Assembly: GCA_965552115.1 (NCBI GenBank)
Contig: CBEVQU010000002.1
Span: 1 to 36,917 of the forward strand
Length of the DNA stretch: 36,917 bases
Reading direction: 5' to 3'
Source of the DNA: an uncultured bacterium
GTDB taxonomy: Bacteria; Patescibacteriota; Minisyncoccia; Minisyncoccales; CAZLLZ01
In this document: positions 4,867 through 36,917 of the stretch, piece after piece
Position numbering within the stretch: the first letter of the stretch is position 1
How the letters are laid out: the number at the start of each line of letters is the position of its first letter
Translations under genes and position numbers: made by a program
The notes under the pieces: generated by a model
What the model saw: only the letters and a program-made list of their open reading frames with translations
Database searches by the model: none
Told to the model about the DNA's origin: nothing

Positions 4867-4871
4867 AAATT

Positions 4872-6918: not shown

Positions 6919-6927
6919 AAATAAAAT

Positions 6928-7443: not shown

Positions 7444-7445
7444 AA

Positions 7446-8027: not shown

Positions 8028-8028
8028 T

Positions 8029-9827: not shown

Positions 9828-9831
9828 GAAA

Positions 9832-10710: not shown

Positions 10711-10988
10711 CTAGACCAAAAAAACCAAGAAGAATATTTTTTGATCCTAACTTTACTTATTTTAAACCAAGAGCTATTCCTCTTTCTGAATTAGAAGAAG
10801 AAGAGCTTTCCATTGATGAATTGGAAGCTATTAGACTTTGTGATTTAAAAAATTTAAATCAGATAGAAGCTGCTAAAAAAATGAAAATTTCTCAAAGCAC
10901 TCTCCAGAGAATTTTATCTTCTGCCAGAAAAAAAATAGCTAAAGCTCTCATTGAAGGAAAAGCCATCAAAATAAAGAAAAAAATTTAA
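10707..10988 (+). CDS. DUF134 family HTH DNA-binding protein
   Basis: RPKKPRRI, YFKP, DELEAIRLCD, AAKKMKISQST, ARKKIAKALIEGKAI. Confidence 0.92.
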   Translation: MTRPKKPRRIFFDPNFTYFKPRAIPLSELEEEELSIDELEAIRLCDLKNLNQIEAAKKMKISQSTLQRILSSARKKIAKALIEGKAIKIKKKI

Positions 10989-11074: not shown

Positions 11075-11257
11075 GTGGCAAGGAGAAAAAGCTCAAAAAG
11101 AAATATTCGGAAATTAACAAAAGTTGGCGGCAAAAGCTATGCTGTGACTTTACCGATTGAAGTTATCCGAGCTTTTGGCTGGAAAGAAAGACAAAAACTC
11201 ATCTTAAAAATAAACAAAAAAAATAAAACAATAACAATAAAAGACTGGAAAAAATGA
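11075..11257 (+). CDS. AbrB/MazE/SpoVT-family DNA-binding protein
   Basis: RKLTKVGGKSYAVTLPIEVIRAFGWKERQKL; GTG start; overlaps the hsdM start (ATGA). Confidence 0.85.
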   Translation: MARRKSSKRNIRKLTKVGGKSYAVTLPIEVIRAFGWKERQKLILKINKKNKTITIKDWKK

Positions 11258-12843
11258 GGAAAGAAGAAAAAATATTTAGGAAAGATATAAGGAAATTTGT
11301 AGATCTTCAAACCTTAGAGTCTTGGCTTAAGGAAGCTGCTGATCTTTTAAGAGGAAGAGATGAAGGATTAAAGTACATTATTACTCTACTTTTCTACAAA
11401 AGACTTTGCGATGTTTTTGATGATGAAATCGAAAATCTTAAAAATAAATTTTCTCAACTTGGGGAAAAGGAAATTTTAAAATTAGCAAAGGAAGAAAAAT
11501 TAGTTCCTTTTTTTATTCCAGAAGAGGCTCATTTTCAAACAATAAGAAAAACTACCACTAATTTAGGTGAAAGGCTTACAGAAGCTCTAAGGAAAATTGC
11601 CAGAGAAAATCCAGAACTTCAAGGAGTAATTGATATTATTGATTTTAACGAAACGAGATATAGTCACGGTGAAAGAATTAGGGTTATTTCCGATGATACT
11701 CTTTCTAAGCTTCTCGAAATTTTTAATGAGTACACAATTGGACTTGATGAGGCAGAACCTGATGTTTTGGGTAGAGCTTACGAATATCTTTTGAGACTTT
11801 ATGCTCAAGGAAAAGGTAAAACAGCTGGAGAATTTTACACCCCTAGAGAGGTAGCTTATCTAATGGCTTATTGTGTCGATCCTAAAGAAGGAGAAGAGGT
11901 TTACGATCCTGCTTGTGGATCTGGAGGTTTTCTAATTAAATCTCATTTAGTACTGAAAGAAAAATTAGAAAAACAGGGAAAAGAGATTGAAATTCCCTTG
12001 AAACTTTACGGACAAGAAAGAGACCCGACAACTTTTGCTTTAGCAAAAATCAACATGTTCATTCACAATATCGAAACTGTCGATATTAGGCTTGGAGATA
12101 CTATTTTAAACCCTCGCTTTATTGAAAACGGAAAATTAAAGCAGTTTGACATAGTTTTGGCTAACCCAATGTGGAACCAAAAGGGATATTCTGAAAGTTT
12201 TTGTAATTCTGATCCTTTTGAAAGGTTTGTCTTTGGCTATGTTGGAGGACCCAAAGGTAAAAGCAGTTTTGATTGGGGCTGGATTCAGCATATGTTCGCT
12301 TCTTTGAAACCTACAGGAAGAATGGCAGTAATTTTAGACACAGGTTCTGTCTCAAGAGGGACAGGTAAAAAGAAGGACAAGGAAAAAGCGGTTCGCCAAA
12401 AATTTGTTGATAATGATTTTATTGAGGCAGTTTTACTTTTGCCAGAAAATCTTTTTTATAACACTGGCGCTCCTGGAATTATTCTTTTTATCCGAAAACA
12501 AAAACCAAAAGAAAGGAAAGGTAAAATTTTGTTAATTAACGCAAATAGAGAATTTGTCAAAGGAAAGCCAAAGAATTATTTAAGTGAAGAAAATATCAAA
12601 AAGATAGTTGATGTTTATAAAAATTTTAAGGAAGTAGATAAATTCAGCAAAATAATCACCTTAGAAGAAGCAAGAAAAGCAGATTATAATTTAAGCCCTT
12701 CAAGATTTGTATGGGTATGGGAGGAGGAAAAGTATAGATCAATTGAGGAAATAATGAAAGATTTAGAAAATACAGAGAAAGAAAGAAGAAAAATTGAGAA
12801 AAAATTAGAAGAAATTTTATTCTCTGTAAAAGGTCCAAAATAA
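11254..12843 (+). CDS. hsdM: Type I restriction-modification methyltransferase subunit
   Basis: LGRAYEYLL, GEFYTPREV, YDPACGSGG, LYGQE, motif IV ANPMW, LFYNTG. Confidence 0.95.
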   Translation: MRKEEKIFRKDIRKFVDLQTLESWLKEAADLLRGRDEGLKYIITLLFYKRLCDVFDDEIENLKNKFSQLGEKEILKLAKEEKLVPFFIPEEAHFQTIRKTTTNLGERLTEALRKIARENPELQGVIDIIDFNETRYSHGERIRVISDDTLSKLLEIFNEYTIGLDEAEPDVLGRAYEYLLRLYAQGKGKTAGEFYTPREVAYLMAYCVDPKEGEEVYDPACGSGGFLIKSHLVLKEKLEKQGKEIEIPLKLYGQERDPTTFALAKINMFIHNIETVDIRLGDTILNPRFIENGKLKQFDIVLANPMWNQKGYSESFCNSDPFERFVFGYVGGPKGKSSFDWGWIQHMFASLKPTGRMAVILDTGSVSRGTGKKKDKEKAVRQKFVDNDFIEAVLLLPENLFYNTGAPGIILFIRKQKPKERKGKILLINANREFVKGKPKNYLSEENIKKIVDVYKNFKEVDKFSKIITLEEARKADYNLSPSRFVWVWEEEKYRSIEEIMKDLENTEKERRKIEKKLEEILFSVKGPK

Positions 12844-12861
12844 ATAAAACGCAAAAGTTTC

Positions 12862-13167
12862 ATGCCTAAAAGAGGAAGAAAAGCCGAAATAAAAGTAGCT
12901 ACGTACTTAAAGAGAAAAGGGGCAAAAGTTAAAATTTCTCCTGGAAGTAGAGGCTCTGCTGATATTATTGCCAAATGGCCTTCAGGAAAACGATGGCTGA
13001 TTCAAGTGAAGTCTTCTGGAAGGAAAGTAAAAGATTTATCCTCAAAAGAGAAACATAATCTTGTTCGAAGAGCTCAACGCAATAAAGCAGTAGCAGTAAA
13101 AGCTGAAGTAGAAAAAGGAAAGATTACTTTTAAATCTGTGAGAAACGGGAGAATTCTTAAGCCTTAG
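12862..13167 (+). CDS. Small PD-(D/E)XK nuclease, Hjc/Mrr-like
   Basis: GRKAEIKVATYLKRKG...GSRGSADIIA...LIQVKS. Confidence 0.7.
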   Translation: MPKRGRKAEIKVATYLKRKGAKVKISPGSRGSADIIAKWPSGKRWLIQVKSSGRKVKDLSSKEKHNLVRRAQRNKAVAVKAEVEKGKITFKSVRNGRILKP

Positions 13168-13190
13168 AGTAATTTCTCAAAAAGTTAGTT

Positions 13191-14015
13191 ATGATACATT
13201 TAGAAGAAATATTTCACTCATTGAATAATTTTCTCAATACATTCTTAGGGGCTCCGTTTTGGAAGGGACTGGGTGTTATTATTACAACTTTAATGGTATT
13301 TTTTACTTATTGGTCTCTTAAAACATTAAGAAAAGAAAGAAAAATTCAATTAAATCGAGAAATTGTAGAGAAAATTTATAATGTTTTGCTTCAAGATTTA
13401 AAGACTATTTTCTCGTCAAGAAAGATTGAAAACTTAGAAAGTATACATCCAAAAAATTGGAAATGGGAAGAAATAAAGAGAAAAGAACCATGGATTTCGT
13501 ACCAAATTTCCCAACATTTATTTAAAAAACTTAATAAATTTTCTCAAAAAGTTAAAGATTATGAAAAAATAAGAATATCTTTCAGAGAGGAGTTTGAGAA
13601 GTTTTTGACTAAAATTGTGAAATCTAAAAAAATTCTTTCGGAAGAAGAGTTAGATAGATTAGAAAAAGTAGAGACTATAACTTACTGGGAAGGAGAAGGG
13701 TCAACTTGGAAAAGTGTGAGTATTTTTGAACTTTTCTTTTACAACAAAAACATATACGAATTTTTTAATACAAAAAAGCTAAAAGGAAAATTTTTATTAG
13801 ATTATTTTCTTTATTCTCAAGGTCGGAAACGGAAAGAACTTAATGAAGAAGAATTTAACAAAATTTGGCAGGTGGTAAACAACCGTGATTATGCTTTTTC
13901 TCGAAGTCTAAATTTAGAAGCTTTCCAAAAAATCAAAGAGTTTTACAAGGAAGTTAAGAATTTAAACGAAGAAATTGCAGAACAAATCTTTCAACTGACG
14001 CGAGAAAGGTTGTAA
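13191..14015 (+). CDS. Hypothetical protein with N-terminal transmembrane segment
   Basis: 274-aa ORF; hydrophobic GLGVIITTLMVFFTYWSL; no recognised motif. Confidence 0.6.
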   Translation: MIHLEEIFHSLNNFLNTFLGAPFWKGLGVIITTLMVFFTYWSLKTLRKERKIQLNREIVEKIYNVLLQDLKTIFSSRKIENLESIHPKNWKWEEIKRKEPWISYQISQHLFKKLNKFSQKVKDYEKIRISFREEFEKFLTKIVKSKKILSEEELDRLEKVETITYWEGEGSTWKSVSIFELFFYNKNIYEFFNTKKLKGKFLLDYFLYSQGRKRKELNEEEFNKIWQVVNNRDYAFSRSLNLEAFQKIKEFYKEVKNLNEEIAEQIFQLTRERL

Positions 14016-14034
14016 AATTTAAGGCAAAAAAATT

Positions 14035-14379
14035 ATGACTAAAGAAGAAAAAAGAATATTAAAGGAAATTGTTACTCGTGGCGGTCTTTTGTCGCCGGCT
14101 ACGGTAATTAATGCAATTGCAAAAGGAGATAGGCGATCAGTTGAAAATTTGGTAGTGAAGGGATATATCGAAGAAGTTCCACAGGATATACAAGGGCCGA
14201 GAGATACTTATACGCTTAATTTCTATAGGGCTACAGAAAAGGGCCTTTTAGTTTTTGCACCATTGTATAAAAGAATATTGTTCGCAATAAAAGGAGATAT
14301 TCGTACTATAATCATTTCAGCAATTACCGCTTTGATTACCACGCTAATTACTATTTTTCTTGAAAAGTTGTTACGATAA
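14035..14379 (+). CDS. Hypothetical protein, winged-helix-like N-terminus with C-terminal TM helix
   Basis: VENLVVKGYIEE...FYRATEKG pattern; C-terminal IIISAITALITTLITIFL. Confidence 0.55.
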   Translation: MTKEEKRILKEIVTRGGLLSPATVINAIAKGDRRSVENLVVKGYIEEVPQDIQGPRDTYTLNFYRATEKGLLVFAPLYKRILFAIKGDIRTIIISAITALITTLITIFLEKLLR

Positions 14380-14389
14380 TTTAGATAAA

Positions 14390-15676
14390 ATGAAAACTAA
14401 ATGGCCAACAAAAAAATTAGGAGAGATTTGTGAATGGTATTTTTCAGGAGTTTGGGGAAGAGAACCGGAAAGTAACACTAATTTAGCTAAAGTAATCCGT
14501 GTTTCTGACATTAAAGATGATTTTTCTATTGATTATGAAAAAGTACCAGTAAGGGCAATAACTTCAAAAGATTTAGAAAAATATAAACTGAAAACAGGTG
14601 ATATTGTAATTGTGAAATCTAGTGGTTCAAAGAATAGAGTAATTTCTGGAAGAGCAGCGTATTTTGAAGAACAAAACAATCAAGTTTTTATTCCTTCCAA
14701 TTTTCTTTTAACCTTACGAATTTCAAGAAATAAAGCTCTTCCAAAATTTGTATGGTATTTCCTTCTAACTGAGAAAGTTAAAGGTTACGTTAAAGGAATT
14801 GTTGAGGGGACGACATATCCAAACCTAAATATTTCCCAATATTTAATTCTTCAAATTCCCCTCCCGCCTCTTCCCATTCAACAAAAAATCGTCTACATAT
14901 TAGACACAATTCAATCTGCGATTAAATTACAGGAGAAAATTATTGAAAAGACAAAAGAATTAAAAAAGAGTTTGATGGCGGAGTTGTTTAAGTATGGCGG
15001 ACCATCGTTTAGGAAAGGAAGAAAATTAAAGAAAACTGAAATCGGAGAAATTCCTGAAAATTGGGAAGTAGTGAGGTTGGGGGAGGTGGTAATTAGAAAT
15101 GATGGAATTAAAAGAGGTCCTTGGGGAGGATCGATAAAAAAAGAGATTTTTGTTGAGGAAGGATATAAAGTTTATGAGCAAGGAAATGTTATCAAAAAAA
15201 ATTTTGAAATTGGGAATTATTTCATTACGGAAGAAAAATTTTACGAGCTTAGAGATTTTGAAGTGAAGCCTGGCGATATTTTATTAACAGCTGCAGGTTC
15301 CCTAGGACAAATTGCAATAGTACCTCAAAACATAAAAAAAGGAATAATGAATCAAGCATTAATTAGAATTAGATTAAACAATGAGAAAATTAACCACCTT
15401 TTCTTTAGTTATCTTTTTAATCACATATCGAGTATTTTTGCGAAGTATTCTCATGGATCTACATTAAAAAATTTAGTTTCTGTAGGCGAATTGAAAACTC
15501 TTCCAATCCCCCTCCCACCTCTTCCCGAGCAACGAGAGATTGTCGAAATTCTTCAGACGATTGATCAAAAAATTGAAATTGAAAAAAAGAAAAAAGAACT
15601 TTATGAGGAGTTGTTTAAAACAATGTTGAATAAAATAATGAATCAAGAGATCGATGTAGGGAAGATAAATTTATGA
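14390..15676 (+). CDS. hsdS: Type I restriction-modification specificity subunit
   Basis: Two TRDs; conserved IPLPPLPIQQKIV and IPLPPLPEQREIV; KKTEIGEIPENWEVVRLGEV spacer; ATG 14390 preferred over TTG 14360. Confidence 0.95.
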   Translation: MKTKWPTKKLGEICEWYFSGVWGREPESNTNLAKVIRVSDIKDDFSIDYEKVPVRAITSKDLEKYKLKTGDIVIVKSSGSKNRVISGRAAYFEEQNNQVFIPSNFLLTLRISRNKALPKFVWYFLLTEKVKGYVKGIVEGTTYPNLNISQYLILQIPLPPLPIQQKIVYILDTIQSAIKLQEKIIEKTKELKKSLMAELFKYGGPSFRKGRKLKKTEIGEIPENWEVVRLGEVVIRNDGIKRGPWGGSIKKEIFVEEGYKVYEQGNVIKKNFEIGNYFITEEKFYELRDFEVKPGDILLTAAGSLGQIAIVPQNIKKGIMNQALIRIRLNNEKINHLFFSYLFNHISSIFAKYSHGSTLKNLVSVGELKTLPIPLPPLPEQREIVEILQTIDQKIEIEKKKKELYEELFKTMLNKIMNQEIDVGKINL

Positions 15677-16248
15677 TTCCTGAAGAGAAATTCAAAACAG
15701 ATTTAATTGATAAGCTAAACAAAATTTATCCAGGTTGGGTGAATGGTGATAAAGAAAAAGGTCAACATAAGAAAGTTGATATAATTAATCATTCACTTAA
15801 GATCGCTATAGAGATAAAAGATGATACCTACTCTAAACGAATAGATCCTCCTCTTTCAGGAGAGATAATCGTGTATGGAGAAGATCTCGATAAAAAGAAT
15901 AAAATTCTTTTAGATGACATACGTTCTGCAAACCAAAAATTTAAAGCTTACCCTGGATATAAGACTATATTAATTATTCGCACAGAGTCTGACATTGCTG
16001 ATACAATTAGATATCCGATTGAAGGTTTATATACTTACAAGTTTAATTCCCGGACAAAGAAATTACAATATGTGGGTAGAAAGACAAAATACTCAAGATT
16101 TGTAAGAAAAGAAATTGGCTGCTACTTAATTTTTAATGGTGATTGGTATTATTTCTTCAACAAATATGCAAATCAAAATCGAGTTTTGCATAAGAGGGAT
16201 ATAGAAGATTATTTTGGGATACGACTAAAAGAAGTTCCAGAAGTTTAA
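15673..16248 (+). CDS. Hypothetical protein, probable PD-(D/E)XK nuclease fold
   Basis: EEKFK...KKVDIINHSLKIAIEIKD matches E...D-x(n)-ExK; coupled to the hsdS stop. Confidence 0.55.
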   Translation: MIPEEKFKTDLIDKLNKIYPGWVNGDKEKGQHKKVDIINHSLKIAIEIKDDTYSKRIDPPLSGEIIVYGEDLDKKNKILLDDIRSANQKFKAYPGYKTILIIRTESDIADTIRYPIEGLYTYKFNSRTKKLQYVGRKTKYSRFVRKEIGCYLIFNGDWYYFFNKYANQNRVLHKRDIEDYFGIRLKEVPEV

Positions 16249-16263
16249 CATATAATAATAAAC

Positions 16264-19176
16264 ATGAGACATGTAAGCTTCTTAGAAGCAAAAACTGTTC
16301 AGGATCCGATTTTGAAATACGCAACTGAAATTGGTTGGGAGTTTTTGAATAACGAAAAAGAACTTGATTTGCGAGATGGAGAAACGGGAATTTTATTTGA
16401 AAAGATAATTAAAGGAAAAATTTTAAGATTCAATCCTAATATAGACGAAGATGTGGCTGATGAGATAATCAAAGAACTTAGAGAGAGAACAAGATTTGAC
16501 ATTTTAGGTAATAAAAAAATTTTGAATTTTTTGAGAGGAGAAACTCCTTTTTATAGCAAGCAAGAAAGAAGAGAGATTAATATAAAGTTGATTGATTTTG
16601 AAAATGTCGAAAATAATACTTTTCAAGTAGTAAAAGAGTTGAGTTTTACAAATGGTAAAGCATGGAATAGATACGATTTAGCATTTTACATCAATGGTAT
16701 TCCGATTTTAATTTGCGAAACAAAAAGCCCAGAAAAAGAAGAAGGAATCGAAGAGGCAATATCTCAAATAGAAAGATATCATAGAGAGACGCCCGAATTT
16801 TTAGTTTTCCCTTCAATTTATGTGGTTTCTGATCTTTTAAATTTTAAGTACGGTCCCACATGGAACATAGAAGAAAGGAGTCTTTATAATTGGAAAGGTG
16901 AAAGCTTAGAAAATATAGTAAAAAGCTTTTTTGATAAAAAGAGAATTTTATCATTATTGAAAGATTATATTGTATTTTGGGAGAAAGGAGGGGAATTAAA
17001 AAAGTTTATTTTAGCTTTTCATCAAATAAGGGCTGTTGAAAAAATCGTAAAACGAGTTTTAGAAGGCAAGAAAAAAGAAGGATTAATCTGGCATACTCAG
17101 GGAAGTGGAAAGACTTTAACAATGATTGTTGCTGCTCATAAACTGAGGAAAATTCCACAACTTCAAAATCCTACTTTAATAATGGTTGTTGATAGAAACG
17201 AACTCGAAGAGCAACTTAAAACTAATTTGGAAAACTACGGTTTTGAATCTGTAGAGGTTGCTCAATCAAAAAAACATCTTAGAAAACTTTTAGAATCAGA
17301 TTATCGGGGATTAATTTTAACTTTAATTCATAAATTCGATAAATTACCCAAAAATATAAATCAAAGAAACAATATTATTGTTTTTGTAGATGAAGCTCAT
17401 CGTTCTCAAGAGGGAGAACTTGGGGTTTATATGAGGGCAGCTTTGCCTAATGCTTTTTACTTTGGTTTCACTGGTACACCTATTGATAAGACAAACGTCG
17501 GAAAAGGTACTTTCTTGATGTTTGGCAAAAATGATTTACCCAAGGGATATCTCGATAAATATTCAATTTTAAACTCCTTAGAAGACGGAACTACTGTTCC
17601 TATTCATTATACTTTGGCTCCAAACGAAATTAGAGTTCCCACTGAGCTTTTGGAAAAAGAGTTTTTCAAGATGGTTGAGAAAATGGGAATAGTAAGCGTA
17701 GAACAGCTTGATAAGAAAATTTTAGATAAAGCAGTGAAATTGAAGAATCTTTTGAAAAGCCCAGATAGAATCGAAAAAGTAGTAAAATTTATAGCAAAAC
17801 ACTTTCAAGAAAACGTTGAACCCTTGGGTCTTAAAGCATTAATTGTGGGAGTAGATAGAGAGGCTTGCGCATTGATTAAAAAAGAATTAGACAAACATTT
17901 GCCTCAAGATTATTCTTATCCTATCTATACTAGAAACTATCAAGATCCAGAACTCATAAAAAAATTCTATCTTAGTGAAAGAGAAGAGCAAGAAATTAAA
18001 AAGAGATTTTTAAAGGCCGAAGAACTTCCTAAAATTTTAATTGTTACAAGTAAACTTTTGACTGGTTTTGATGCCTCTATTTTATATGTGATGTATCTTG
18101 ATAAACCCATGTCAGATCATACACTGTTACAAGCAGTGGCTAGAGTAAATAGACCCTTTAAAGGAAATCAAAATGTAAATCCTAAGTCAGCTGGATTGAT
18201 CGTTGATTTTATTGGGATCTTTAAAAAATTAAAGAAAGCTTTAAGATTTGATTCTATGGAAATTGAGGGCGTACTGATTGATTTTGAAGAAGTAAAAAAA
18301 GAATTTAAAAGCCAAATGAGAGAAGGGCAAAAATATTTAGCTCTTGCAGGACCTAAACTTGATGACAAAGCGGTAGAAAGAATAATCGAGTACTTTATTG
18401 ATAAGAAAAAAAGAAAAAAATTCTTTGATTTCTTTAAGTCTCTTCAGAAAAACTTTGAGCTTTTATCACCAGATCCATTTTTGAGAGATTATTTAGATGA
18501 TTATCTGATTCTTTCTGGGATTTTTAAAATCATCAAGAAACATTTTATTAGTGAAAAAACAAAATTAAAAAGAGAACTTTTCAATAAAACAGTTAAGCTT
18601 ATTAAGAAATACGCAGAAACCAAAGGTTTAGAAAAAACCTTACCAATTTATCCTATAAATGAACAAGTTTTAAAAGTGCTTCATGAAGATAGTTCTCCAG
18701 AGACAGTCAAAATTATAAAAATTCATCGTTCCATTTGTATTTTAATAGAAGAGAGTGGAACAACAGAGCCCTTTCTTTTTTCCTTAAAGGAGAAATTGGA
18801 GAAGATTTTAGAAGAGTTTGAAAGAAGACAGATCGATACTAAAGAGGCTTTAACTAGATTAGAAAATCTGCTTAAAGAAATCAATAAAGCACGGAAAGAG
18901 AAAGAAAAAACAGGGCTTTCTTCTCATCAATTTGGGATATATTGGGTAATGAAGGATTTAATTCCAGAGGAGAAGAAAGTTAAAAGGATAGCCATAGAGA
19001 TTAATAATTTATTCGAAAAGTATCACAATTGGCAATTTAATCCTTATCAATCGCGTAAATTAAAAATTGATTCTTTAAACCTTCTGCTTTCGCTTGACAT
19101 GAGAAATGTTGATTTAATGAGAGAGAAATTGAACTTAATATTAGAAATGAAAAAACATTGCCTCACGAACAAGTAA
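16264..19176 (+). CDS. hsdR: Type I restriction endonuclease subunit R
   Basis: YDLAFYINGIP..CETK nuclease motif, WHTQGSGKT, DEAHRSQ, GFTGTP, LLTGFDA, QAVARVNR. Confidence 0.96.
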   Translation: MRHVSFLEAKTVQDPILKYATEIGWEFLNNEKELDLRDGETGILFEKIIKGKILRFNPNIDEDVADEIIKELRERTRFDILGNKKILNFLRGETPFYSKQERREINIKLIDFENVENNTFQVVKELSFTNGKAWNRYDLAFYINGIPILICETKSPEKEEGIEEAISQIERYHRETPEFLVFPSIYVVSDLLNFKYGPTWNIEERSLYNWKGESLENIVKSFFDKKRILSLLKDYIVFWEKGGELKKFILAFHQIRAVEKIVKRVLEGKKKEGLIWHTQGSGKTLTMIVAAHKLRKIPQLQNPTLIMVVDRNELEEQLKTNLENYGFESVEVAQSKKHLRKLLESDYRGLILTLIHKFDKLPKNINQRNNIIVFVDEAHRSQEGELGVYMRAALPNAFYFGFTGTPIDKTNVGKGTFLMFGKNDLPKGYLDKYSILNSLEDGTTVPIHYTLAPNEIRVPTELLEKEFFKMVEKMGIVSVEQLDKKILDKAVKLKNLLKSPDRIEKVVKFIAKHFQENVEPLGLKALIVGVDREACALIKKELDKHLPQDYSYPIYTRNYQDPELIKKFYLSEREEQEIKKRFLKAEELPKILIVTSKLLTGFDASILYVMYLDKPMSDHTLLQAVARVNRPFKGNQNVNPKSAGLIVDFIGIFKKLKKALRFDSMEIEGVLIDFEEVKKEFKSQMREGQKYLALAGPKLDDKAVERIIEYFIDKKKRKKFFDFFKSLQKNFELLSPDPFLRDYLDDYLILSGIFKIIKKHFISEKTKLKRELFNKTVKLIKKYAETKGLEKTLPIYPINEQVLKVLHEDSSPETVKIIKIHRSICILIEESGTTEPFLFSLKEKLEKILEEFERRQIDTKEALTRLENLLKEINKARKEKEKTGLSSHQFGIYWVMKDLIPEEKKVKRIAIEINNLFEKYHNWQFNPYQSRKLKIDSLNLLLSLDMRNVDLMREKLNLILEMKKHCLTNK

Positions 19177-31909: not shown

Positions 31910-32599
31910 ATGAGATATCCAGAGATTGACTTCAAAATAAAAAAGGAGACAGATTTTTATTTATATAAAATCTTTTCAAAAGAAAATCGAAGAATTTTGG
32001 ATGCATGTTTTTATAATTTATATAGTGATCTATCTTGTCTTAAAAAAAAGAACCTTTCTTCAAAGGAAAAAATAAAAGTTATAAAAAATTTTATTGAGGA
32101 ATATTATAAGAAACATCAAAGAGAGATTGAAGAAAACCTAATGGAAATAGAAAAAGATTGGAATGGAATAAAAAATGATTTTTTTAGATTAGTTGATAAA
32201 ATTTTCAAAAATCACCCTTGGCCTAAAGGAAAATATATAGCTTATGTAACTATTTGGGGAATTTATCCACGTGATATAAAAGAAAAGATATTTTTCATAC
32301 CTTATAAAGATAAAAAATTAGCTTTAGAAGTTATCGCCCACGAAATGCTTCATTTTATCTTTTATGATTATCTTTATAGCCATTATCCGAAATATAAAAA
32401 GAAAAAATATCAAAAGAGGATTTGGAAAATCTCAGAATCTTTTAATGTGATTATACAAAATCAAAGAGAGTGGGTAGCTCTTTTTCACAAAAGACCTGAG
32501 GTTTATCCAGAACTTAAAAAATTAATTCAAAAAATTAGAAAGATTTGGAGAGAAAAAAAAGACATAGATTATTTATTAAAAAAGATTCTACCTAGATAA
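31910..32599 (+). CDS. Hypothetical HEXXH zincin-like metalloprotease
   Basis: VIAHEMLHF with a downstream Glu (WKISES). Confidence 0.6.
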   Translation: MRYPEIDFKIKKETDFYLYKIFSKENRRILDACFYNLYSDLSCLKKKNLSSKEKIKVIKNFIEEYYKKHQREIEENLMEIEKDWNGIKNDFFRLVDKIFKNHPWPKGKYIAYVTIWGIYPRDIKEKIFFIPYKDKKLALEVIAHEMLHFIFYDYLYSHYPKYKKKKYQKRIWKISESFNVIIQNQREWVALFHKRPEVYPELKKLIQKIRKIWREKKDIDYLLKKILPR

Positions 32600-32614: not shown

Positions 32615-33238
32615 TTAAATTTCTTTCTTTACTATGCATTCAATTACTGTATGGAAATGAGGACTTCCGTGAGAAGTGTCTCTAAAACGTCTTTCTTCAA
32701 AAGAAATAATTTCCAATCCTTTTAATAAATCTTTTACTTCTTTTTTTGGAAAAAAATGTCTAAATATCTGTTTTCTTGGAAGAAAAAAAGTATTTCTCTC
32801 TACTTCTTTGAAATTTTCTTTGAACCGCTTAAAAAAAGGATCTCTTATTGAGAAAACAGATAGATAGAAGATACCTTTATTTTTTAAAGCTTTTTTAATT
32901 TTTTTTATTATCTTTTCTACTTCCTTTCTCTTTAAAAAATCTAAAACTGAAATAGCAATAATCAGTGAATAGGTTTTTGGAGAAAATTTGAATTTCCTCA
33001 CATCTATTAGTTTAGCTTTAATATTTAGTCGTTGTTTTTCAGAAATTTTTTTAATAAATTCTATATTTTCTGGTGAGATATCTATCGCTGTTACTTCAAA
33101 CCCATTTTTAGCAAGAAAAAAACTATTTCTTCCATTTCCTGCTCCAATATCAAGAGCTTTTCCTTTAGAAGAATATTTTATAATTTTTTTTAATCTTTTT
33201 ACGGGTTTTGTATAAAGATTCACATAGGGAAAATTCAT
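32615..33238 (-). CDS. Class I SAM-dependent methyltransferase (TehB-like)
   Basis: ALDIGAGNGRNSFFLAKNGFEVTAID; C-terminal HGSPHFH. Confidence 0.85.
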   Translation of the reverse strand: MNFPYVNLYTKPVKRLKKIIKYSSKGKALDIGAGNGRNSFFLAKNGFEVTAIDISPENIEFIKKISEKQRLNIKAKLIDVRKFKFSPKTYSLIIAISVLDFLKRKEVEKIIKKIKKALKNKGIFYLSVFSIRDPFFKRFKENFKEVERNTFFLPRKQIFRHFFPKKEVKDLLKGLEIISFEERRFRDTSHGSPHFHTVIECIVKKEI

Positions 33239-33249
33239 ATCTAACTTGT

Positions 33250-33293
33250 TTGACTGTTTTCCTCTCTACATTATATAATAAAAATAAAGGTGA
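33250..33293 (+). promoter_or_regulatory. Promoter and RBS of the Cys-rich peptide gene
   Basis: TTGACT 33250-33255, TATAAT 33274-33279, AAGGTGA 33287-33293 ahead of ATG 33298. Confidence 0.7.
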
Positions 33294-33297
33294 TGAA

Positions 33298-33456
33298 ATG
33301 AAAGATGAAGAGAGGAAGATTCTAGAAAGATATGCATTTTGGAACCTGAGTAAATGGCAAAAGGAATTTTGTGAAAGTTGTCGAGGGTGTGGTGCGCCAT
33401 CTTGTGGATGTGAAACAGGATGTAGTTGTTCTCCTGGATGTGGAGGTCCTGCTTAA
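33298..33456 (+). CDS. 52-aa Cys-rich peptide (RiPP precursor or metallothionein-like)
   Basis: MKDEERKILERYAFWNLSKWQKEF-CESCRGCGAPSCGCETGCSCSPGCGGPA: charged leader-like half plus 8 Cys in a Gly/Ser/Pro core; has its own promoter, RBS and terminator. Confidence 0.8.
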   Translation: MKDEERKILERYAFWNLSKWQKEFCESCRGCGAPSCGCETGCSCSPGCGGPA

Positions 33457-33492
33457 CTCTTGTTCTTTTTCTAAAAATCTGTTTTCAAAAGC

Positions 33493-33527
33493 AAATAGCA
33501 TACTCTCAGGGTATGCTATTTATTTTT
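33493..33527 (+). terminator. Intrinsic terminator after the Cys-rich peptide gene
   Basis: aaatagcatac/gtatgctattt stem followed by a T-rich tract. Confidence 0.75.
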
Positions 33528-33562
33528 CTCTTTACTAGAATATGTAAATTTTTAATATTTTC

Positions 33563-33641
33563 GGCTTGACAGATAAATTTGGAATAAAGCATAAAAAAAT
33601 AAGTTGCTGTTTAAAATAAAATATGGAGGTGAAAAAAATGG
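33563..33641 (+). repeat. Duplicated promoter-leader-RBS cassette, copy 1
   Basis: ggcttgacagataaatttggaataaagcataaaaaaataagttgctgtttaaaataaaatatggaggtgaaaaaaatgg, near-identical to 35472-35551. Confidence 0.92.
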
Positions 33642-34339
33642 GCGGAAAAAACCATCAGCCGTGTAGGAAATATATTCGAGAGTCTATTATGCTTTCCAAA
33701 GCGACTTCTGATATTTTAGCGAAGCTTGAGATAGCGAATTCTCTTTTGGAAGATGTTTTACTTGCAGAGCTTAATGGAGAAAATAAGAGCCGATATATGA
33801 AGGACATTCTTAAATATTTGATTGAAAGTAAAAATAAAACAGAAGAAGCTCTCAAATATATTAATTGTATTCTAGTAAAAATGGACAAATTAAAGTTCCA
33901 AGATAGCGAGATGCTAAATGAAATATTAGCTCTTAAAGATGCTTTTATTGAGCTAGAAATTATTCCTCGAAGAGAATTTTCAGCTTGGGAAATAACGGCG
34001 AGTATACTTGAAAAAGAAGGATTTAAAGGAATTTTTATTTATTTCCATAAACTTTTAGAGAAGATAAAAGAAAATCTACAAGAATTAATTGAACTTTTTG
34101 TAAAAGGACAAGAGTATACTGAAAAAGGGAACCTATTAGAAGCTATTGAGACGAACGAATTACCAATAAGGCAAAGCTTTGTAAAGGTATATTTAGCTTA
34201 TTTAGATTTTTCAGCAATTTTCACTTGTTCTAGCATAATTTCAACTGAAGTTTATTTAAGAACCAATGGCTATCCTTCACTCCTTTCGGATTTAAATTTC
34301 CCAAGGAAGAGAGATGCGGTTATACTTTCGGAAGTTTAA
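33638..34339 (+). CDS. Hypothetical all-alpha protein (233 aa)
   Basis: GGAGGTG RBS places the start at ATG 33638 (MGGKNHQPC...); amphipathic helices; no family recognised. Confidence 0.7.
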   Translation: MGGKNHQPCRKYIRESIMLSKATSDILAKLEIANSLLEDVLLAELNGENKSRYMKDILKYLIESKNKTEEALKYINCILVKMDKLKFQDSEMLNEILALKDAFIELEIIPRREFSAWEITASILEKEGFKGIFIYFHKLLEKIKENLQELIELFVKGQEYTEKGNLLEAIETNELPIRQSFVKVYLAYLDFSAIFTCSSIISTEVYLRTNGYPSLLSDLNFPRKRDAVILSEV

Positions 34340-34368
34340 GAAATTTCCGATGTTTTATATCTTAAATG

Positions 34369-34398
34369 AATCCGAATCTTTAATGATTCGGATTTTTT
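34369..34398 (+). terminator. Intrinsic terminator
   Basis: aatccgaatc-tttaat-gattcggatt followed by a T tract. Confidence 0.75.
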
Positions 34399-34411
34399 AT
34401 TTTTAAAAGAT

Positions 34412-35416
34412 ATGATAGAATTTAATTACAATAAAAGAATTCTTATGGATAACAAAGCTAAGAAAATAAAAATTTCTTTTTCGTTGGACAAAAGAATTTT
34501 TTGTCTTTATTGTGCTTTGGTTTCATGTAATATTCATGAGAAATTCAAAAAAAATTTATCAAAGAGTAATTTTTATAAAGAGCTACAGAGTCATTTTCAG
34601 CACCTCAAACTTAGTAGCAGAAAAAAACTAGAGCATTTTTTTAATCGGAATCATTATTTCCAATATCTTTGTTGGGTCCTTCGTCATTCTGATTTTCCTG
34701 AATTTAAGCTAAGAACAAGAAATAAAGATTCTCTTCAAAAGCCAGATAGTTGGTTTGATGGTTTTGATGAAGTTTTGAGAAGGTTTTATAAAGAAGCGGA
34801 AATAAAAAAACTTTGGGAAAGATCAAAACCAAAGTATCAAAAAATAATTTTTCTTTATCAAGAAGAAACGGAAAAGAAGATTTTAGAAGTAATCAGACGT
34901 GTAAGAGAAAAAAAAATAAAATTGTATTTTAACGAAATAGTATTAATCCCCAATCTTTTAGAGGCAATAGGGGTAGGTTTTGCTCCGATGATTCCTCCAA
35001 GAGCTTATATAATTTTCGGCCCTTCTACTAAAAAAGTTAATACTTCCTTAATTATTCATGAGTTTTTACATCATTTGATTAATCCTTTGCTTGAAGAAAA
35101 AGAGATAAAAAAGAAACTCATAATTTTTAGAAAAAAGTATTTTTCTTTTACAACTCCTTTATCAAGAAAATTCTATCCTAAATGGAGTTGGATTGCCTCA
35201 GAATATTTTGTTCGAGCTTTTCAAGCAACTCTCATTCAAAATAAAATCGAAAGAGAAAAATTTCTTAAAATGGAAGAAAAGCAAGGTTTTCCTAAAATCA
35301 AATGGTTTTTTTACTGCTTTCAAAAATTTAAACATAGAGATTCCATGAGAAAACAAATAATCGAAATTCTTGATGAGTTATCCAAAAGTAAAAATTTAGG
35401 ATTAACAGAGGATTAG
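34412..35416 (+). CDS. HEXXH metallopeptidase-like protein (DUF4932-like)
   Basis: IIHEFLHHLINP...YPKW..IASEYFVRA...EEKQGF; the true start may be ATG 34445. Confidence 0.7.
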   Translation: MIEFNYNKRILMDNKAKKIKISFSLDKRIFCLYCALVSCNIHEKFKKNLSKSNFYKELQSHFQHLKLSSRKKLEHFFNRNHYFQYLCWVLRHSDFPEFKLRTRNKDSLQKPDSWFDGFDEVLRRFYKEAEIKKLWERSKPKYQKIIFLYQEETEKKILEVIRRVREKKIKLYFNEIVLIPNLLEAIGVGFAPMIPPRAYIIFGPSTKKVNTSLIIHEFLHHLINPLLEEKEIKKKLIIFRKKYFSFTTPLSRKFYPKWSWIASEYFVRAFQATLIQNKIEREKFLKMEEKQGFPKIKWFFYCFQKFKHRDSMRKQIIEILDELSKSKNLGLTED

Positions 35417-35471
35417 CTTTTTAGAATATATCAAAGATTTTTTAACAGAAGAAAAATGTTTTTAAAATTTT

Positions 35472-35551
35472 GGCTTGACAGATAAATTTGGAATAAAGTA
35501 TAAAAAAAAATAAATTGCTGTTTAAAATAAAATATGGAGGTGAAAAAATGG
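35472..35551 (+). repeat. Duplicated promoter-leader-RBS cassette, copy 2
   Basis: Differs from copy 1 by two substitutions and two A-run lengths. Confidence 0.92.
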
Positions 35552-35661
35552 AAGATAAAAAAGAATTTGTTAAGAAAGTTCTTTCTGATATTAAGAAAGA
35601 AGAGAAAGATATGAAACCAGATGATTGGAGAGGTCTTCTTCATAATTGGATAAAATGCTAA
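35548..35661 (+). CDS. 37-aa peptide not in the ORF track (candidate RiPP precursor)
   Basis: MEDKKEFVKKVLSDIKKEEKDMKPDDWRGLLHNWIKC*; preceded by GGAGGTG and TTGACA, immediately followed by a terminator. Confidence 0.75.
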   Translation: MEDKKEFVKKVLSDIKKEEKDMKPDDWRGLLHNWIKC

Positions 35662-35663
35662 AT

Positions 35664-35693
35664 TGGGCTAAGCTAATTTTTAGCCCATTTTTT
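35664..35693 (+). terminator. Intrinsic terminator after the 37-aa peptide gene
   Basis: tgggctaa/ttagccca stem followed by T6. Confidence 0.75.
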
Positions 35694-35730
35694 ATATTGT
35701 ATTTTTTTTAGAAACTGATAAAATTTGATT

Positions 35731-36609
35731 ATGAACTGGAAACTAAAAAAAATTATTACCAAAGATGGGATTAATCTAGAAGGGATATTTTTTCTTCCTC
35801 CGAGTCATAAGAATAAAGGAATACTTTTTATTCACGGTTTCACAGGAAATTTTTATAGTAATATTGAAATACTCAATGCTTTGGCAGAGAGACTTGGAAA
35901 ATTTGGGTTTGGTGTTGCATCTTTTAATACGCGGGGTCATGATATTATTAGTTGGATTCGCTGCGAAGGAAAAAAAGAAAAGAAGCTATTAATTCTAGGT
36001 GGAGCTTTTGAAAAATTTGAAGATTGTATTTTAGATATAGAAGCTGGCTTGAAGTTTTTACATTCTCAAGGTTTTAATGATCTTATATTAATAGGAATAA
36101 GTACTGGGGCAGACAAAGTAGCTTATTATTTATCTAAACCTCATAGTAAGTTAATTAGAGGCGCAGTTTTTCTATCACCCGCTGACAATATTTTAATTGG
36201 CCGAAAAGAGTTAGGGAAAAAGCTTGATACGATCTTAAAGAAAACAAAAAGAATGATAAAAATAGGCAAAAAGAATGAGCTTATTTTAGATCCATTACTT
36301 GAATTTCCTATTTCTTATCATCGTTTTTTTAGCTTGTACCAAGAAGGAAGCAATGAAAATGTCTTTGTTTTTCATAGTCGGGTAAAAAAGTCCAAGGTTT
36401 TATCAAGGATTAAAGAACCTATTTTTTTAATATTAGGAGAGAAAGATAGATATTTATATAATTATTCTCCTCAGTTTGTAATAAGAATCATTAAAAGAAA
36501 TATTTATTCGAGTTTTAAATCAGCGGTAATAAAAGACGCAGGCCATAACTTCAAAGGTAAAGAAAAAAAATTAGCCAATTTGATTGCTAATTGGATTAAG
36601 AAACTATAA
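35731..36609 (+). CDS. Alpha/beta hydrolase (DUF1749-like serine hydrolase)
   Basis: FIHGFTGNFY, RGHD, nucleophile GISTG, GEKD, AGHNF. Confidence 0.85.
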   Translation: MNWKLKKIITKDGINLEGIFFLPPSHKNKGILFIHGFTGNFYSNIEILNALAERLGKFGFGVASFNTRGHDIISWIRCEGKKEKKLLILGGAFEKFEDCILDIEAGLKFLHSQGFNDLILIGISTGADKVAYYLSKPHSKLIRGAVFLSPADNILIGRKELGKKLDTILKKTKRMIKIGKKNELILDPLLEFPISYHRFFSLYQEGSNENVFVFHSRVKKSKVLSRIKEPIFLILGEKDRYLYNYSPQFVIRIIKRNIYSSFKSAVIKDAGHNFKGKEKKLANLIANWIKKL

Positions 36610-36758
36610 CTTAATTATTATTTTTTAGTTAGTCCCTGATGTTTTTTTCAGTCTTTTTACTGGAATTTTAAGATATTTTGTTCTAATAACAGCTGGAAAC
36701 TAGCTTCATTTTTGACATTATTTAAGGAGTGTAATATATAAAAGAGAGGTGATGTAAG

Positions 36759-36917
36759 GTGTCTAATCAAATAAGTGCATTAAAAAGTAAATATGGAAAT
36801 GAGAAGATAAAGGAATACTGGTTTTCCATTCAGCTTAAACCGGTAGGAAGTGCGTGTAATATCGCAAGAGGATGGCGATCGAGGAGAGTTACCGGGGCCT
36901 CAAAGCTCTTTTGGGCC
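36759..36917 (+). CDS. N-terminus of anSME/SPASM-like radical SAM protein, partial and interrupted
   Basis: GAGGTGA RBS, GTG start, MSNQISALKSKYGNEKIKEYWFSIQLKPVGSACNI; KPxGxxCN is the anSME-type lead-in to CxxxCxxC, but the 2nd and 3rd Cys are absent. Confidence 0.65.
   Translation, partial: MSNQISALKSKYGNEKIKEYWFSIQLKPVGSACNIARGWRSRRVTGASKLFWA

What the first reader, a model, noticed from the sequence alone, without database searches (positions are those of the whole stretch)
33298..33456. Bipartite 52-aa peptide with 8 Cys: ranthipeptide-like precursor or novel metallothionein
Seen: residues 1-24 are charged/aromatic and helix-like; residues 25-52 (CESCRGCGAPSCGCETGCSCSPGCGGPA) have CxxCxxC, CxC and CxxxC spacing. 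The gene is monocistronic. Established: a leader plus Cys/Gly/Ser-rich core is typical of thioether RiPP precursors, while CxC clusters are also typical of metallothioneins. Inference: the nearby rSAM and the leader favour a RiPP, but metal binding is not excluded.
Basis: partly seen in the sequence, partly recalled or inferred. Interest (0 to 1): 0.8.

Follow-up and report, generated by a model that had tools for sequence, protein, structure and literature searches.

The report
Orphan Cys-rich radical-SAM peptide precursor
This is a real small gene for a rare cysteine-rich peptide whose relatives sit next to a radical-SAM enzyme and a methyltransferase, so it is most likely the precursor of a modified, probably metal-binding, peptide, although this genome lacks the matching enzyme.

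Summary
Window 33298-33456 (+) encodes the quoted 52-aa, 8-Cys peptide, with a near-consensus promoter, a Shine-Dalgarno site and a terminator of its own.

It belongs to a rare family not covered by Pfam or NCBIfam: 16 clusters among 5.8 billion proteins. Invariant residues are F14, W15 and the core C36-G-C-x2-G-C-x-C-x2-G-C-G-G50.

In 4 of 4 homologue loci I could read, the peptide abuts a ~370-aa radical SAM/SPASM enzyme. Its best match is the ACGX-system model TIGR04340, then SbtM. In 2 of 2 loci with enough flank a TehB-like methyltransferase follows. The window keeps that methyltransferase directly upstream, on the opposite strand.

Peptides beside two cut-off-passing ACGX enzymes share the L..[YFI].[FY]W leader.

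- The rSAM at 9027 is unrelated.
- No ACGX-type enzyme is found in this 97.8%-complete genome.
- The anSME-like rSAM/SPASM starting at 36759 appears to have its own small "WIKC" peptide.

The core has the same Cys/Gly spacing as plant type-2 metallothioneins and a SlyD tail, so metal binding is not excluded. I rate it a new variant of a known, uncharacterised kind.

The parts
33250..33279 (+). sigma-70-type promoter-like site, TTGACT-18 nt-TATAAT
   Evidence: 11 of 12 matches, the best of 4 sites found in 32900-33900 (shuffles give a mean of 4.7 sites, so the count alone is not significant). Strain-variant contigs keep it, and a 1-nt deletion at 33261 makes the spacer 17 nt.
33287..33293 (+). 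Shine-Dalgarno site AAGGTGA, 4 nt before the ATG
   Evidence: Read directly from the sequence.
33298..33369 (+). Leader-like N-terminal segment, residues 1-24. F14 and W15 are invariant and E5 is in at least 90% of the 16 aligned sequences (A3); L9 and Y12 reach 90% only in the 10-sequence alignment (A2).
   Evidence: The same L..[YFI].[FY]W motif occurs in the small peptides beside two TIGR04340 enzymes that pass the cut-off (L246, L247). Predicted helices at 3-12 and 17-26 (low confidence).
33370..33456 (+). Cys/Gly-rich core, residues 25-52, plus the TAA stop. Invariant motif C36-G-C-x-x-G-C-x-C-x-x-G-C-G-G50, with three Gly-Cys units.
   Evidence: The spacing is identical to the plant type-2 metallothionein N-domain and to a SlyD-like C-terminal tail.
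33493..33531 (+). Intrinsic-terminator-like hairpin (13 pairs, loop of 3) followed by ATTTTTCTCT
   Evidence: the only such site in 32900-33900 (shuffles give a mean of 0.5).
32615..33238 (-). TehB-like SAM-dependent methyltransferase, 207 aa, transcribed divergently 59 nt upstream. It is the conserved partner gene of the peptide family.
   Evidence: Pfam TehB 80.8 bits. NCBIfam TehB models 79-96 bits, below their cut-offs. It is 48-53% identical to the methyltransferases beside the homologous peptides in L142 and L210, and 32% identical to the one beside a cut-off-passing ACGX enzyme in L246. Only 33-35% matches occur in 3 of 60 relatives.
35548..35661 (+). Context, not part of the finding: a 37-aa small ORF ending in NWIKC, the likely cognate precursor of the downstream rSAM/SPASM
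   Evidence: The closest rSAM homologue (G132, 52% identity) is followed by two tandem small ORFs ending in QWIKC and SWTKC.
36759..36862 (+). Context: 5' end of an anaerobic-sulfatase-maturase-like rSAM/SPASM gene that continues on contig C23 (1-1101). Window bases 36863-36917 are a foreign assembly end.
   Evidence: C2 36783-36862 equals C23 1-80 at 79 of 80 bases; contigs of runs X1, X3 and X6 continue with the C23 sequence after 36862. TIGR03942 264 bits against a cut-off of 349.

Best explanation
The ORF is a genuine small gene with its own transcription signals. It encodes a precursor-type peptide of an ACGX-like radical-SAM RiPP system. This is a sister family to the NCBIfam 'ACGX system' and is not covered by its peptide model.

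Proposed mechanism, with the status of each step:
1. Shown by sequence only: the gene has its own promoter, Shine-Dalgarno site and terminator.
2. Inferred: the N-terminal ~24 residues (E5, L9, Y12, F14, W15) are the recognition, or leader, segment for an ACGX-type rSAM/SPASM enzyme.
3. Inferred by homology of the linked enzymes to SbtM: the invariant core cysteines, three of them in Gly-Cys units, are oxidised by radical chemistry at Cys C-beta. This would give 5-thiooxazole-type rings or another Cys-directed cross-link.
4. Inferred from conserved adjacency: the TehB-like methyltransferase adds methyl groups.
5. Speculative: the product is a thiol-rich, metal-binding peptide.

In this genome the cognate ACGX-type enzyme is not at the locus and was not found in the assembly. 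The peptide-methyltransferase pair is therefore an orphan module. It is either only methylated, cross-processed by another rSAM/SPASM, or used unmodified.
For: - Conserved family: 16 clusters with an invariant FW motif and the core CGCxxGCxCxxGCGG.
- In 4 of 4 readable metagenome loci (L142, L203, L210, L222) the peptide lies about 0-40 nt downstream of a 367-382-aa rSAM/SPASM.
- I scanned three of those four enzymes (L142, L203, L210). Their best NCBIfam match is TIGR04340 rSAM_ACGX at 323-332 bits, followed by TIGR04082 SbtM at 214-223 bits.
- In 2 of 2 loci with enough flank a TehB-like methyltransferase follows. It is 48-53% identical to the window's.
- Two genomes of the same phylum have TIGR04340 enzymes above the cut-off (426.6 and 410.5 bits). 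Both carry adjacent small Cys/Gly peptides with the same leader motif (KELKSINYW, EKLKDFDFW). One also has a TehB-like methyltransferase.
- Equal longest-contig lengths pair six more family clusters with ACGX-like rSAMs: 30337, 26232, 4033, 2158, 2185 and 10589. This is an inference, not a look-up.
- SbtM converts a conserved Gly-Cys(Sec) motif to a thio(seleno)oxazole (PMC9204691, passages read). 5-Thiooxazole peptides bind copper (PMC12668002, abstract and passages read).
- ESM Atlas nearest clusters by features are rSAM-modified Cys-rich RiPPs (FibroRumin 0.82, SCIFF 0.78). These are under 0.9, so they are leads only.
Against: - The window's genome has no ACGX-type enzyme. The best TIGR04340 score is 148.5 bits, on contig C1, against 323-332 bits in the homologue loci and a cut-off of 400. 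That C1 protein scores better as NirJ2/AhbD-like (300 bits). It also occurs in 2 of 60 relatives in which the peptide was not found.
- 0 of 16 family members, and neither of the two ACGX-adjacent peptides, hit the ACGX target model TIGR04341 or any NCBIfam precursor model.
- The linked rSAMs score below the TIGR04340 cut-off.
- No modification has been observed for any member, and the ACGX system itself is only a computational prediction.
- Only 4 homologue contexts could be read directly.
Confidence: 0.62

Rival explanations
1. The peptide works unmodified as a small metallothionein-like metal-binding peptide. The C-terminal Cys/Gly cluster binds soft metals such as Zn, Cu(I) or Cd, and the N-terminal helix is only a solubility or interaction module.
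For: - The invariant core CGCxxGCxCxxGCGG has exactly the Cys/Gly spacing of the plant type-2 metallothionein N-domain ([23 protein letters not shown]). 32 of 108 metagenome stretches matching my degenerate DNA pattern were such plant MT2 starts.
- The same motif ends a SlyD-like prolyl isomerase (L148; PDB SlyD hits with E 3e-11 to 2e-9). From recall, the SlyD tail is a metal-binding region.
- This genome lacks the cognate rSAM, yet it keeps an intact ORF with strong expression signals.
Against: - No significant metallothionein family hit: Pfam Metallothio_2 matches 3 of 16 members with a best E of 0.14, and the window peptide matches none.
- Five aromatic residues and a conserved FW motif in the N-terminal half are atypical of metallothioneins (recalled criterion).
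- 4 of 4 readable homologue loci place the gene against an rSAM/SPASM, not next to metal-resistance genes.
- The PDB profile search found nothing at E up to 10.
Confidence: 0.15
2. The peptide is a second substrate of the local anaerobic-sulfatase-maturase-like rSAM/SPASM (window 36759 onward, continued on contig C23). This enzyme would replace the lost ACGX-type enzyme and make thioether (ranthipeptide-like) or Cys-oxidised products.
For: - The enzyme lies 3.3 kb downstream on the same strand, and the join to C23 is confirmed.
- No sulfatase (PF00884) is found in the genome, so it has no classical substrate.
- It is rare among relatives: 2 of 60 have only 27-30% matches.
- It has partial similarity to PapB ranthipeptide (157 bits) and CcpM Cys-rich-peptide (96 bits) maturases, both below their cut-offs.
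- The methyltransferase-peptide pair sits between genes that recur beside such rSAMs elsewhere. The 229-aa HExxH protein at 31910-32599 matches neighbours in L255 (E 1e-25) and L259 (E 1e-4).
- SbtM chemistry is described as starting like anSME thiol oxidation (PMC9204691, passage read).
Against: - This rSAM appears to have its own precursor: a 37-aa ORF ending in WIKC at 35548-35661. Its counterparts, ending in QWIKC and SWTKC, directly follow the closest homologue of the enzyme (52% identity) in G132.
- None of the 13 homologue loci in 12 of the 400 other phylum genomes searched has an FW/CGC-type peptide in the flanks held, about 1.5 kb on each side.
Confidence: 0.13
3. The gene is a decaying or functionless remnant of an ACGX-like cassette that lost its enzyme.
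For: - The cognate rSAM is missing.
- The gene order differs from all four readable homologue loci. There the methyltransferase is downstream and convergent; here it is upstream and divergent.
Against: - All 12 family-invariant residues are intact.
- The promoter, Shine-Dalgarno site and terminator are near-consensus.
- A strain variant seen in contigs of two studies keeps the ORF, with two N-terminal substitutions (D3N, E4K, equal to P0001) and one synonymous Cys codon change. It also keeps the promoter.
- The methyltransferase is full length.
Confidence: 0.1

Closest known systems
ACGX system (NCBIfam TIGR04340 rSAM_ACGX and TIGR04341 target_ACGX), a computationally predicted RiPP system
   Same: - Small Cys/Gly-rich peptide next to a ~360-aa rSAM/SPASM enzyme without an N-terminal extension.
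- The enzymes of the homologue loci have TIGR04340 as their best match, at 323-332 bits.
- The same leader motif and a TehB-like methyltransferase occur beside enzymes that pass the cut-off.
   Different: - The peptides do not match TIGR04341: 0 of 16, and none in the window's genome.
- The core is CGCxxGCxCxxGCGG, not ACGX tetrapeptide repeats (the repeat definition is recalled, not from a call).
- The linked enzymes score below the 400-bit cut-off.
- In the window the enzyme is absent altogether.
SbtM/SbtMa thio(seleno)oxazole RiPP (TIGR04082)
   Same: - Second-best match of the linked enzymes, at 214-223 bits.
- SbtM acts on a conserved Gly-Cys(Sec) motif (PMC9204691, passages read). The family has three invariant Gly-Cys units.
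   Different: - Scores are below the 350-bit cut-off.
- The matches fall in model positions 181-516 of 516, so the region before about position 180 is not represented in these enzymes.
- There is no in-frame stop that could encode selenocysteine in the peptide.
- The chemistry is untested here.
SCIFF and other ranthipeptides
   Same: Short peptide with a charged leader and about six conserved Cys, in a family linked to an rSAM/SPASM. SCIFF is an ESM Atlas feature neighbour at 0.78, which is a lead only.
   Different: - No hit to SCIFF models in Pfam or NCBIfam.
- The linked enzymes are not of the SCIFF-maturase type.
- The local anSME-like enzyme scores 77.9 bits on TIGR03974 against a cut-off of 425.
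Plant type-2 metallothionein N-terminal domain, and the Cys-rich tail of a SlyD-like isomerase
   Same: Identical C-G-C-x2-G-C-x-C-x2-G-C-G-G spacing, including the glycines.
   Different: - No significant sequence-family match.
- An aromatic, conserved N-terminal half.
- rSAM linkage of the homologues.
- Most likely convergence on a short motif.
Captophorins (5-thiooxazole copper-binding RiPPs made by MNIO enzymes)
   Same: Multiple Cys in a peptide are converted to thiol-bearing heterocycles that bind Cu (PMC12668002, abstract and passages read). This is a possible functional analogue of the product proposed here.
   Different: The enzyme class is different: oxygen-dependent MNIO rather than radical SAM. 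There is no sequence relation. The analogy is a hypothesis.

Membership tests
ACGX-system target peptide (TIGR04341 target_ACGX) | Scores at or above the model's cut-off of 28 bits | tested here: not met
   No hit at E up to 10 for the window peptide, for any of the 16 family members, or in a six-frame search of the whole genome.
ACGX-system target peptide (TIGR04341 target_ACGX) | Encoded next to a TIGR04340 rSAM/SPASM enzyme | tested here: not met
   Window: no rSAM is adjacent, and the best TIGR04340 score in the genome is 148.5 bits on contig C1. Homologue loci: all four have an adjacent enzyme. The three I scanned score 323-332 bits, which is the best-matching model but under the 400-bit cut-off.
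ACGX-system target peptide (TIGR04341 target_ACGX) | Leader similar to peptides beside TIGR04340 enzymes that pass the cut-off | tested here: met
   L246 (410.6 bits) and L245/L247 (426.6 bits) carry adjacent peptides with KELKSINYW and EKLKDFDFW. The family has L..[YF].FW.
ACGX-system target peptide (TIGR04341 target_ACGX) | Repeats of the tetrapeptide Ala-Cys-Gly-Xaa (definition recalled, not from a call) | tested here: not met
   The sequence read has no ACGX repeat. The core is SCGCETGCSCSPGCGG.
SbtM-type thio(seleno)oxazole RiPP | Conserved Gly-Cys(Sec) modification motif in the peptide | tested here: met
   G37-C38, G41-C42 and G47-C48 are invariant in 16 of 16 sequences. The motif is as described in PMC9204691.
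SbtM-type thio(seleno)oxazole RiPP | Maturase reaching the TIGR04082 cut-off of 350 bits | tested here: not met
   214-223 bits in the homologue loci and 101 bits for the C1 protein of this genome.
SCIFF / ranthipeptide | Match to a SCIFF model, with an adjacent SCIFF or PapB-type maturase | tested here: not met
   No Pfam or NCBIfam hit. The local rSAM/SPASM scores 77.9 bits on TIGR03974 (cut-off 425) and 157 bits on PapB (cut-off 340).
SCIFF / ranthipeptide | Thioether links between Cys sulfur and non-alpha carbons | not testable with these tools
   Needs mass spectrometry or NMR of the mature peptide.
Metallothionein | Significant match to a metallothionein family model | tested here: not met
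   The window peptide has no Pfam hit at E up to 10. Metallothio_2 matches 3 of 16 members with a best E of 0.14. The PDB profile search is empty.
Metallothionein | Clustered CxC/CxxxC motifs with metallothionein-like spacing | tested here: met
   The spacing and glycines are the same as the plant MT2 N-domain. 32 of 108 pattern matches were MT2 starts.
Metallothionein | Metal-thiolate cluster formation | not testable with these tools
   Needs metal-loading measurements.
Thiazole/oxazole-modified or lanthipeptide precursor | YcaO cyclodehydratase in the genome | tested here: not met
   PF02624 gives 0 matches at E up to 1 in the 97.8%-complete genome. LanB, LanC and LanM were not searched.

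The most novel reading that the evidence does not exclude
The family is the precursor of an anaerobic, radical-SAM-made counterpart of the copper-binding thiooxazole peptides. Several Gly-Cys units would be turned into thiol-bearing heterocycles and then methylated by a TehB-like enzyme. This would occur in ultra-small-genome bacteria and other anaerobes. In this genome, after loss of the enzyme, the same gene would be kept as a free-standing bacterial metallothionein with a plant-MT2-like cluster.
Probability: 0.2. Interest if true: 0.8.

Novelty: new variant of a known kind. Interest (0 to 1): 0.55.

Why it matters
The ACGX-type rSAM/SPASM enzymes are numerous: 1272 proteins at E up to 1e-30 for one query, from bacteria and archaea. 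In my searches I found nothing in print on their substrates or products. 'ACGX' returned 35 papers, and none of the 15 listed concerns this system. The model accessions and system names returned 0 papers.

This finding does four things.
- It defines a second, unmodelled peptide family for these enzymes.
- It shows a leader motif shared with the peptides beside enzymes that pass the cut-off.
- It adds a conserved TehB-like methyltransferase to the system.
- It gives concrete peptide-enzyme pairs (L142, L203, L210) for a direct test of whether SbtM-like thiooxazole chemistry extends to multi-cysteine, metallothionein-like cores.

The window is also a natural case of a precursor kept without its enzyme. 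That bears on how RiPP precursors might turn into ordinary small proteins.

Tried and rejected
- The search for related loci with alignment A1 in genome contigs and metagenome contigs found 131 and 192 pattern stretches, but none was confirmed by tblastn. I then used degenerate DNA patterns instead.
They gave 122 in-frame pattern matches, mostly GC-rich repeats, plus two plant MT2 contaminant contigs (L045, L061). I inspected only the matches whose open frame was under 140 aa and saw no true homologue among them.
- In the metagenome scan my regex also flagged L184. That is a 540-aa ORF in a 70%-GC contig, and I dropped it as false.
- The six weak hits in 60 same-order relatives, and the one in 400 phylum genomes (G213), are chance frames without the motif.
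- 16 of the 22 HMMER hits are 366-1210-aa beta-propeller-like repeat proteins (LKYAYWNGSSWQIE). They match only residues ~3-37 of this one peptide. The SKWQKE part is not conserved in the family, so I treat them as spurious.
- Complex prediction of the anSME-like rSAM/SPASM (11-row alignment) with the peptide (16-row alignment) returned no answer: score 0.04 against a mark of 0.32.
- RNA-library contigs (runs X6, X7) lie on patches of 33564-36862 but give no cover of the peptide ORF. One X6 contig shows a joint 33201>33564 with only an 18-nt side, which I did not interpret.
- AlphaFold2 gave no confident fold, so no fold search was made.
- Pfam found no FKBP domain in the L148 protein at E up to 0.01. 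The PDB sequence search identified it as SlyD-like.
- PMC8935624, the primary SbtM paper, is not held. The search of earlier findings was not open.
- Literature searches for 'ranthipeptide' with 'Patescibacteria' and for 'SPASM' with 'TehB' listed nothing relevant.

Full report
**The observation**

Window 33298-33456 (+) reads ATG...TAA and encodes MKDEERKILERYAFWNLSKWQKEFCESCRGCGAPSCGCETGCSCSPGCGGPA. The coordinates are exact.

A TTGACT-18-TATAAT site at 33250-33279 matches 11 of 12 positions. AAGGTGA lies 4 nt before the ATG. A 13-pair hairpin with a T-run sits at 33493-33521, the only terminator-like site in the kilobase scanned. Together these frame the ORF as a single-gene unit. They are consensus matches, not evidence of expression.

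**A real but rare family**

- The word-indexed search found two relatives, P0001 (96% identical) and P0002 (67%).
- The exhaustive HMMER search listed 22 proteins at E up to 0.001. Six are 51-76-aa peptides of the same build.
- The other sixteen are 366-1210-aa repeat proteins. Their 'LKYAYWNGSSWQIE' repeat resembles residues 11-23 of this one peptide. I set them aside because that stretch is not conserved in the small family.
- A profile of ten members then found 16 clusters among 5.8 billion proteins.
- In the 16-sequence alignment, F14, W15, C36, G37, C38, G41, C42, C44, G47, C48, G49 and G50 are invariant and E5 is nearly so. L9, Y12 and C28 are kept in at least 90% of the 10-sequence alignment only. 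C25 and C31 vary.
- None of the 16 members hits any NCBIfam model at a meaningful level. In Pfam, 3 of 16 touch plant Metallothio_2 with a best E of 0.14.
- The peptide was not found in 60 same-order relatives or in 400 sampled genomes of the phylum. All weak hits were inspected and are chance frames.

**What sits beside the homologues**

A degenerate DNA pattern for the invariant core, scanned over the metagenome contigs, gave 108 stretches. Four carry true family members: L142, L203, L210 and L222. A fifth regex hit, L184, was a false positive.

- In all four the peptide gene lies about 0-40 nt downstream of a 367-382-aa protein with a CxxxCxxC motif and a Cys-rich C-terminus.
- I scanned three of these enzymes. 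Their best NCBIfam match is TIGR04340, 'radical SAM/SPASM domain protein, ACGX system', at 323-332 bits against a cut-off of 400.
- The next match is TIGR04082, the thio(seleno)oxazole maturase SbtM, at 214-223 bits.
- In the two loci with enough flank (L142, L210) a 220-aa TehB-like methyltransferase comes next. It is 53% and 48% identical to the window's divergent neighbour at 32615-33238.
One example is P0002 with P0047, both on three contigs, the longest 30337 bases. This suggests they lie on the same contigs.

**Link to the ACGX system proper**

Two of 401 genomes of the phylum have enzymes above the TIGR04340 cut-off.

- In G436 (410.6 bits) the order is small peptide, then rSAM, then TehB-like methyltransferase. 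The peptide is MKELKSINYWIK...GCGQGSCNCGGGCNGECGSCS. The methyltransferase is 32% identical to the window's.
- In G312 (426.6 bits) the enzyme is followed by MEKLKDFDFWANHGVHPGCSTGCNEE plus an acidic tail.
- Both peptides share the L..[YFI].[FY]W leader of the window's family.
- Neither matches the curated ACGX target model TIGR04341, so that model is narrow.

I therefore read the window's family as a sister branch of the ACGX targets: same leader, same enzyme lineage, same methyltransferase partner, different core.

**The window is atypical**

- The methyltransferase is upstream and divergent, not downstream and convergent.
- No rSAM abuts the peptide.
- The genome (587 kb, 35 contigs, 97.8% complete) has 11 radical SAM matches. 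Two have SPASM domains.
- The best TIGR04340 score in the genome is only 148.5 bits.
- That protein (contig C1, 479 aa) scores higher as NirJ2/AhbD-like (300 bits). It also occurs at 62% and 37% identity in two relatives in which the peptide was not found.
- The complete rSAM inside the window (9027-9827) has no SPASM domain. It lies within a run of Fe-S, NifB-like and DUF134 genes, 23.5 kb away.

**The second SPASM enzyme**

This enzyme begins at window 36759.

- Window 36783-36862 equals the first 80 bases of contig C23 at 79 of 80 positions. After that the window's last 55 bases diverge and are GC-rich.
- Contigs of two DNA runs and one RNA-library run continue after 36862 with the C23 sequence. 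The gene is therefore contiguous, and the window's tail is an assembly artefact.
- The enzyme is anaerobic-sulfatase-maturase-like: TIGR03942 at 264 bits against a cut-off of 349. No sulfatase is found in the genome.
- It is rare in relatives.
- It seems to have its own substrate. The 37-aa ORF at 35548-35661 ends in NWIKC. The closest homologue of the enzyme (G132, 52% identity) is followed by two tandem small ORFs ending in QWIKC and SWTKC.

So this enzyme may cross-process the 52-aa peptide, but nothing shows that it does.

**The metallothionein resemblance**

- Of the 108 pattern matches, 32 are plant type-2 metallothionein starts ([23 protein letters not shown]).
- One match is the C-terminal tail of a SlyD-like isomerase.

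The invariant core thus has a spacing that occurs in proteins known (from recall) to bind metals through such segments. This is a short-motif resemblance without family-level support. The aromatic, conserved N-terminal half and the rSAM linkage of the homologues argue against a plain metallothionein. For this enzyme-less genome, however, it is not excluded.

**Mechanism proposed**

SbtM oxidises a conserved Gly-Cys(Sec) unit, abstracting hydrogen from Cys C-beta, to give a thio(seleno)oxazole. The product still reacts with iodoacetamide (PMC9204691, passages read). 5-Thiooxazole peptides made by unrelated MNIO enzymes bind copper (PMC12668002, abstract and passages read).

The family has three invariant Gly-Cys units. 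I therefore propose the following sequence of events, all of it inferred:
1. Leader-guided radical oxidation of core cysteines by the ACGX-like enzyme.
2. Methylation by the TehB-like enzyme.
3. A thiol-rich metal-binding product.

The ESM Atlas places the peptide nearest to clusters named as rSAM-modified Cys-rich RiPPs (0.82, 0.80) and SCIFF (0.78). All are under the 0.9 level, so they are leads only.

**Strain data**

Runs labelled marine sediment and hydrothermal vent metagenomes hold most of the stretch. The best holder may be the source sample.

- Variant contigs from two studies carry 33304 G>A and 33307 G>A (D3N and E4K, the P0001 sequence) and 33372 T>C, which is synonymous in Cys25.
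- They also carry a 1-nt deletion in the promoter spacer, which becomes 17 nt.
- The gene is therefore kept intact in at least two strains.

**Limits**

- Only four homologue contexts were read directly.
- No modification, metal binding or transcription of the peptide has been observed.
- The primary SbtM paper and all supplementary files could not be read, so details of the SbtM substrate and gene cluster rest on a perspective article.
- Small ORFs are often not called in public data, so the family may be larger than 16 clusters.

Noticed in passing
window 35548-35661 (+); L249 2585-2661 and 2695-2781: A 37-aa ORF ends in NWIKC and has a strong Shine-Dalgarno site. It lies upstream of an alpha/beta hydrolase and the anSME-like rSAM/SPASM. 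The enzyme's closest homologue (G132, 52% identity) is followed by two tandem small ORFs ending in QWIKC and SWTKC. This looks like a separate candidate RiPP precursor family with a C-terminal W-x-K-C motif.
   Followed up: partly
window 33563-33640 and 35471-35548: A direct repeat of about 78 nt, nearly identical, contains TTGACA and GGAGGTGA. It precedes both the 238-aa ORF (33623) and the WIKC peptide ORF, so the promoter and 5' leader appear duplicated. There is no Rfam match.
   Followed up: partly
window 36863-36917: The last 55 bases are GC-rich and unlike the rest of the window. Public contigs show a much higher depth there and continue differently. This is a chimeric contig end. The true continuation is contig C23.
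   Followed up: yes
window 31910-32599 (+): A 229-aa protein with an HEMLH motif and no Pfam or NCBIfam hit is homologous to genes next to anSME-like rSAM/SPASM enzymes in two other genomes of the phylum (L255, E 1e-25; L259, E 1e-4). The methyltransferase-peptide pair therefore sits between genes of that other cluster.
   Followed up: partly
window 32615-33238 (-), C-terminus; L142 3720-4382; L210 525-1187: The peptide-linked methyltransferases share a C-terminal H-G-x-P-H-F-H motif (SHGSPHFH, SHGQPHFH, WHGDPHFH). This could be a metal or substrate site.
   Followed up: no
L142 4448-4846 (-): A second, shorter (132-aa) copy of the TehB-like methyltransferase lies next to the full-length one. 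It may be a truncated duplicate.
   Followed up: no
window 11254-19176: A complete type I restriction-modification set: HsdM 11254-12843, HsdS 14360-15676 and HsdR 16264-19176, with small nuclease-like ORFs between them.
   Followed up: no
window 4453-10988: A run of genes comprising a NifB/NifX-like Nitro_FeMo-Co protein, a cation-efflux protein, two MinD/ParA-type ATPases with 4Fe-4S domains, a 266-aa rSAM (best match TIGR04470 'mobile pair protein B', 165 bits) and DUF134.
   Followed up: no
L128, L181, L192, L194, L219, L227, L232: Seven metagenome contigs carry the same 34-aa open frame, FGGCDSCGCGWGCSCGGGCGGCGCAGTVVWIVC[RK], with the same Cys/Gly motif. Its nature is unknown.
   Followed up: no
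L045, L061 (genome contigs records of 573 and 598 bases): Two very short contigs filed under bacterial isolates (Chitinophaga, Arthrobacter) encode plant-type metallothionein 2. This is probably plant contamination of those assemblies.
   Followed up: no
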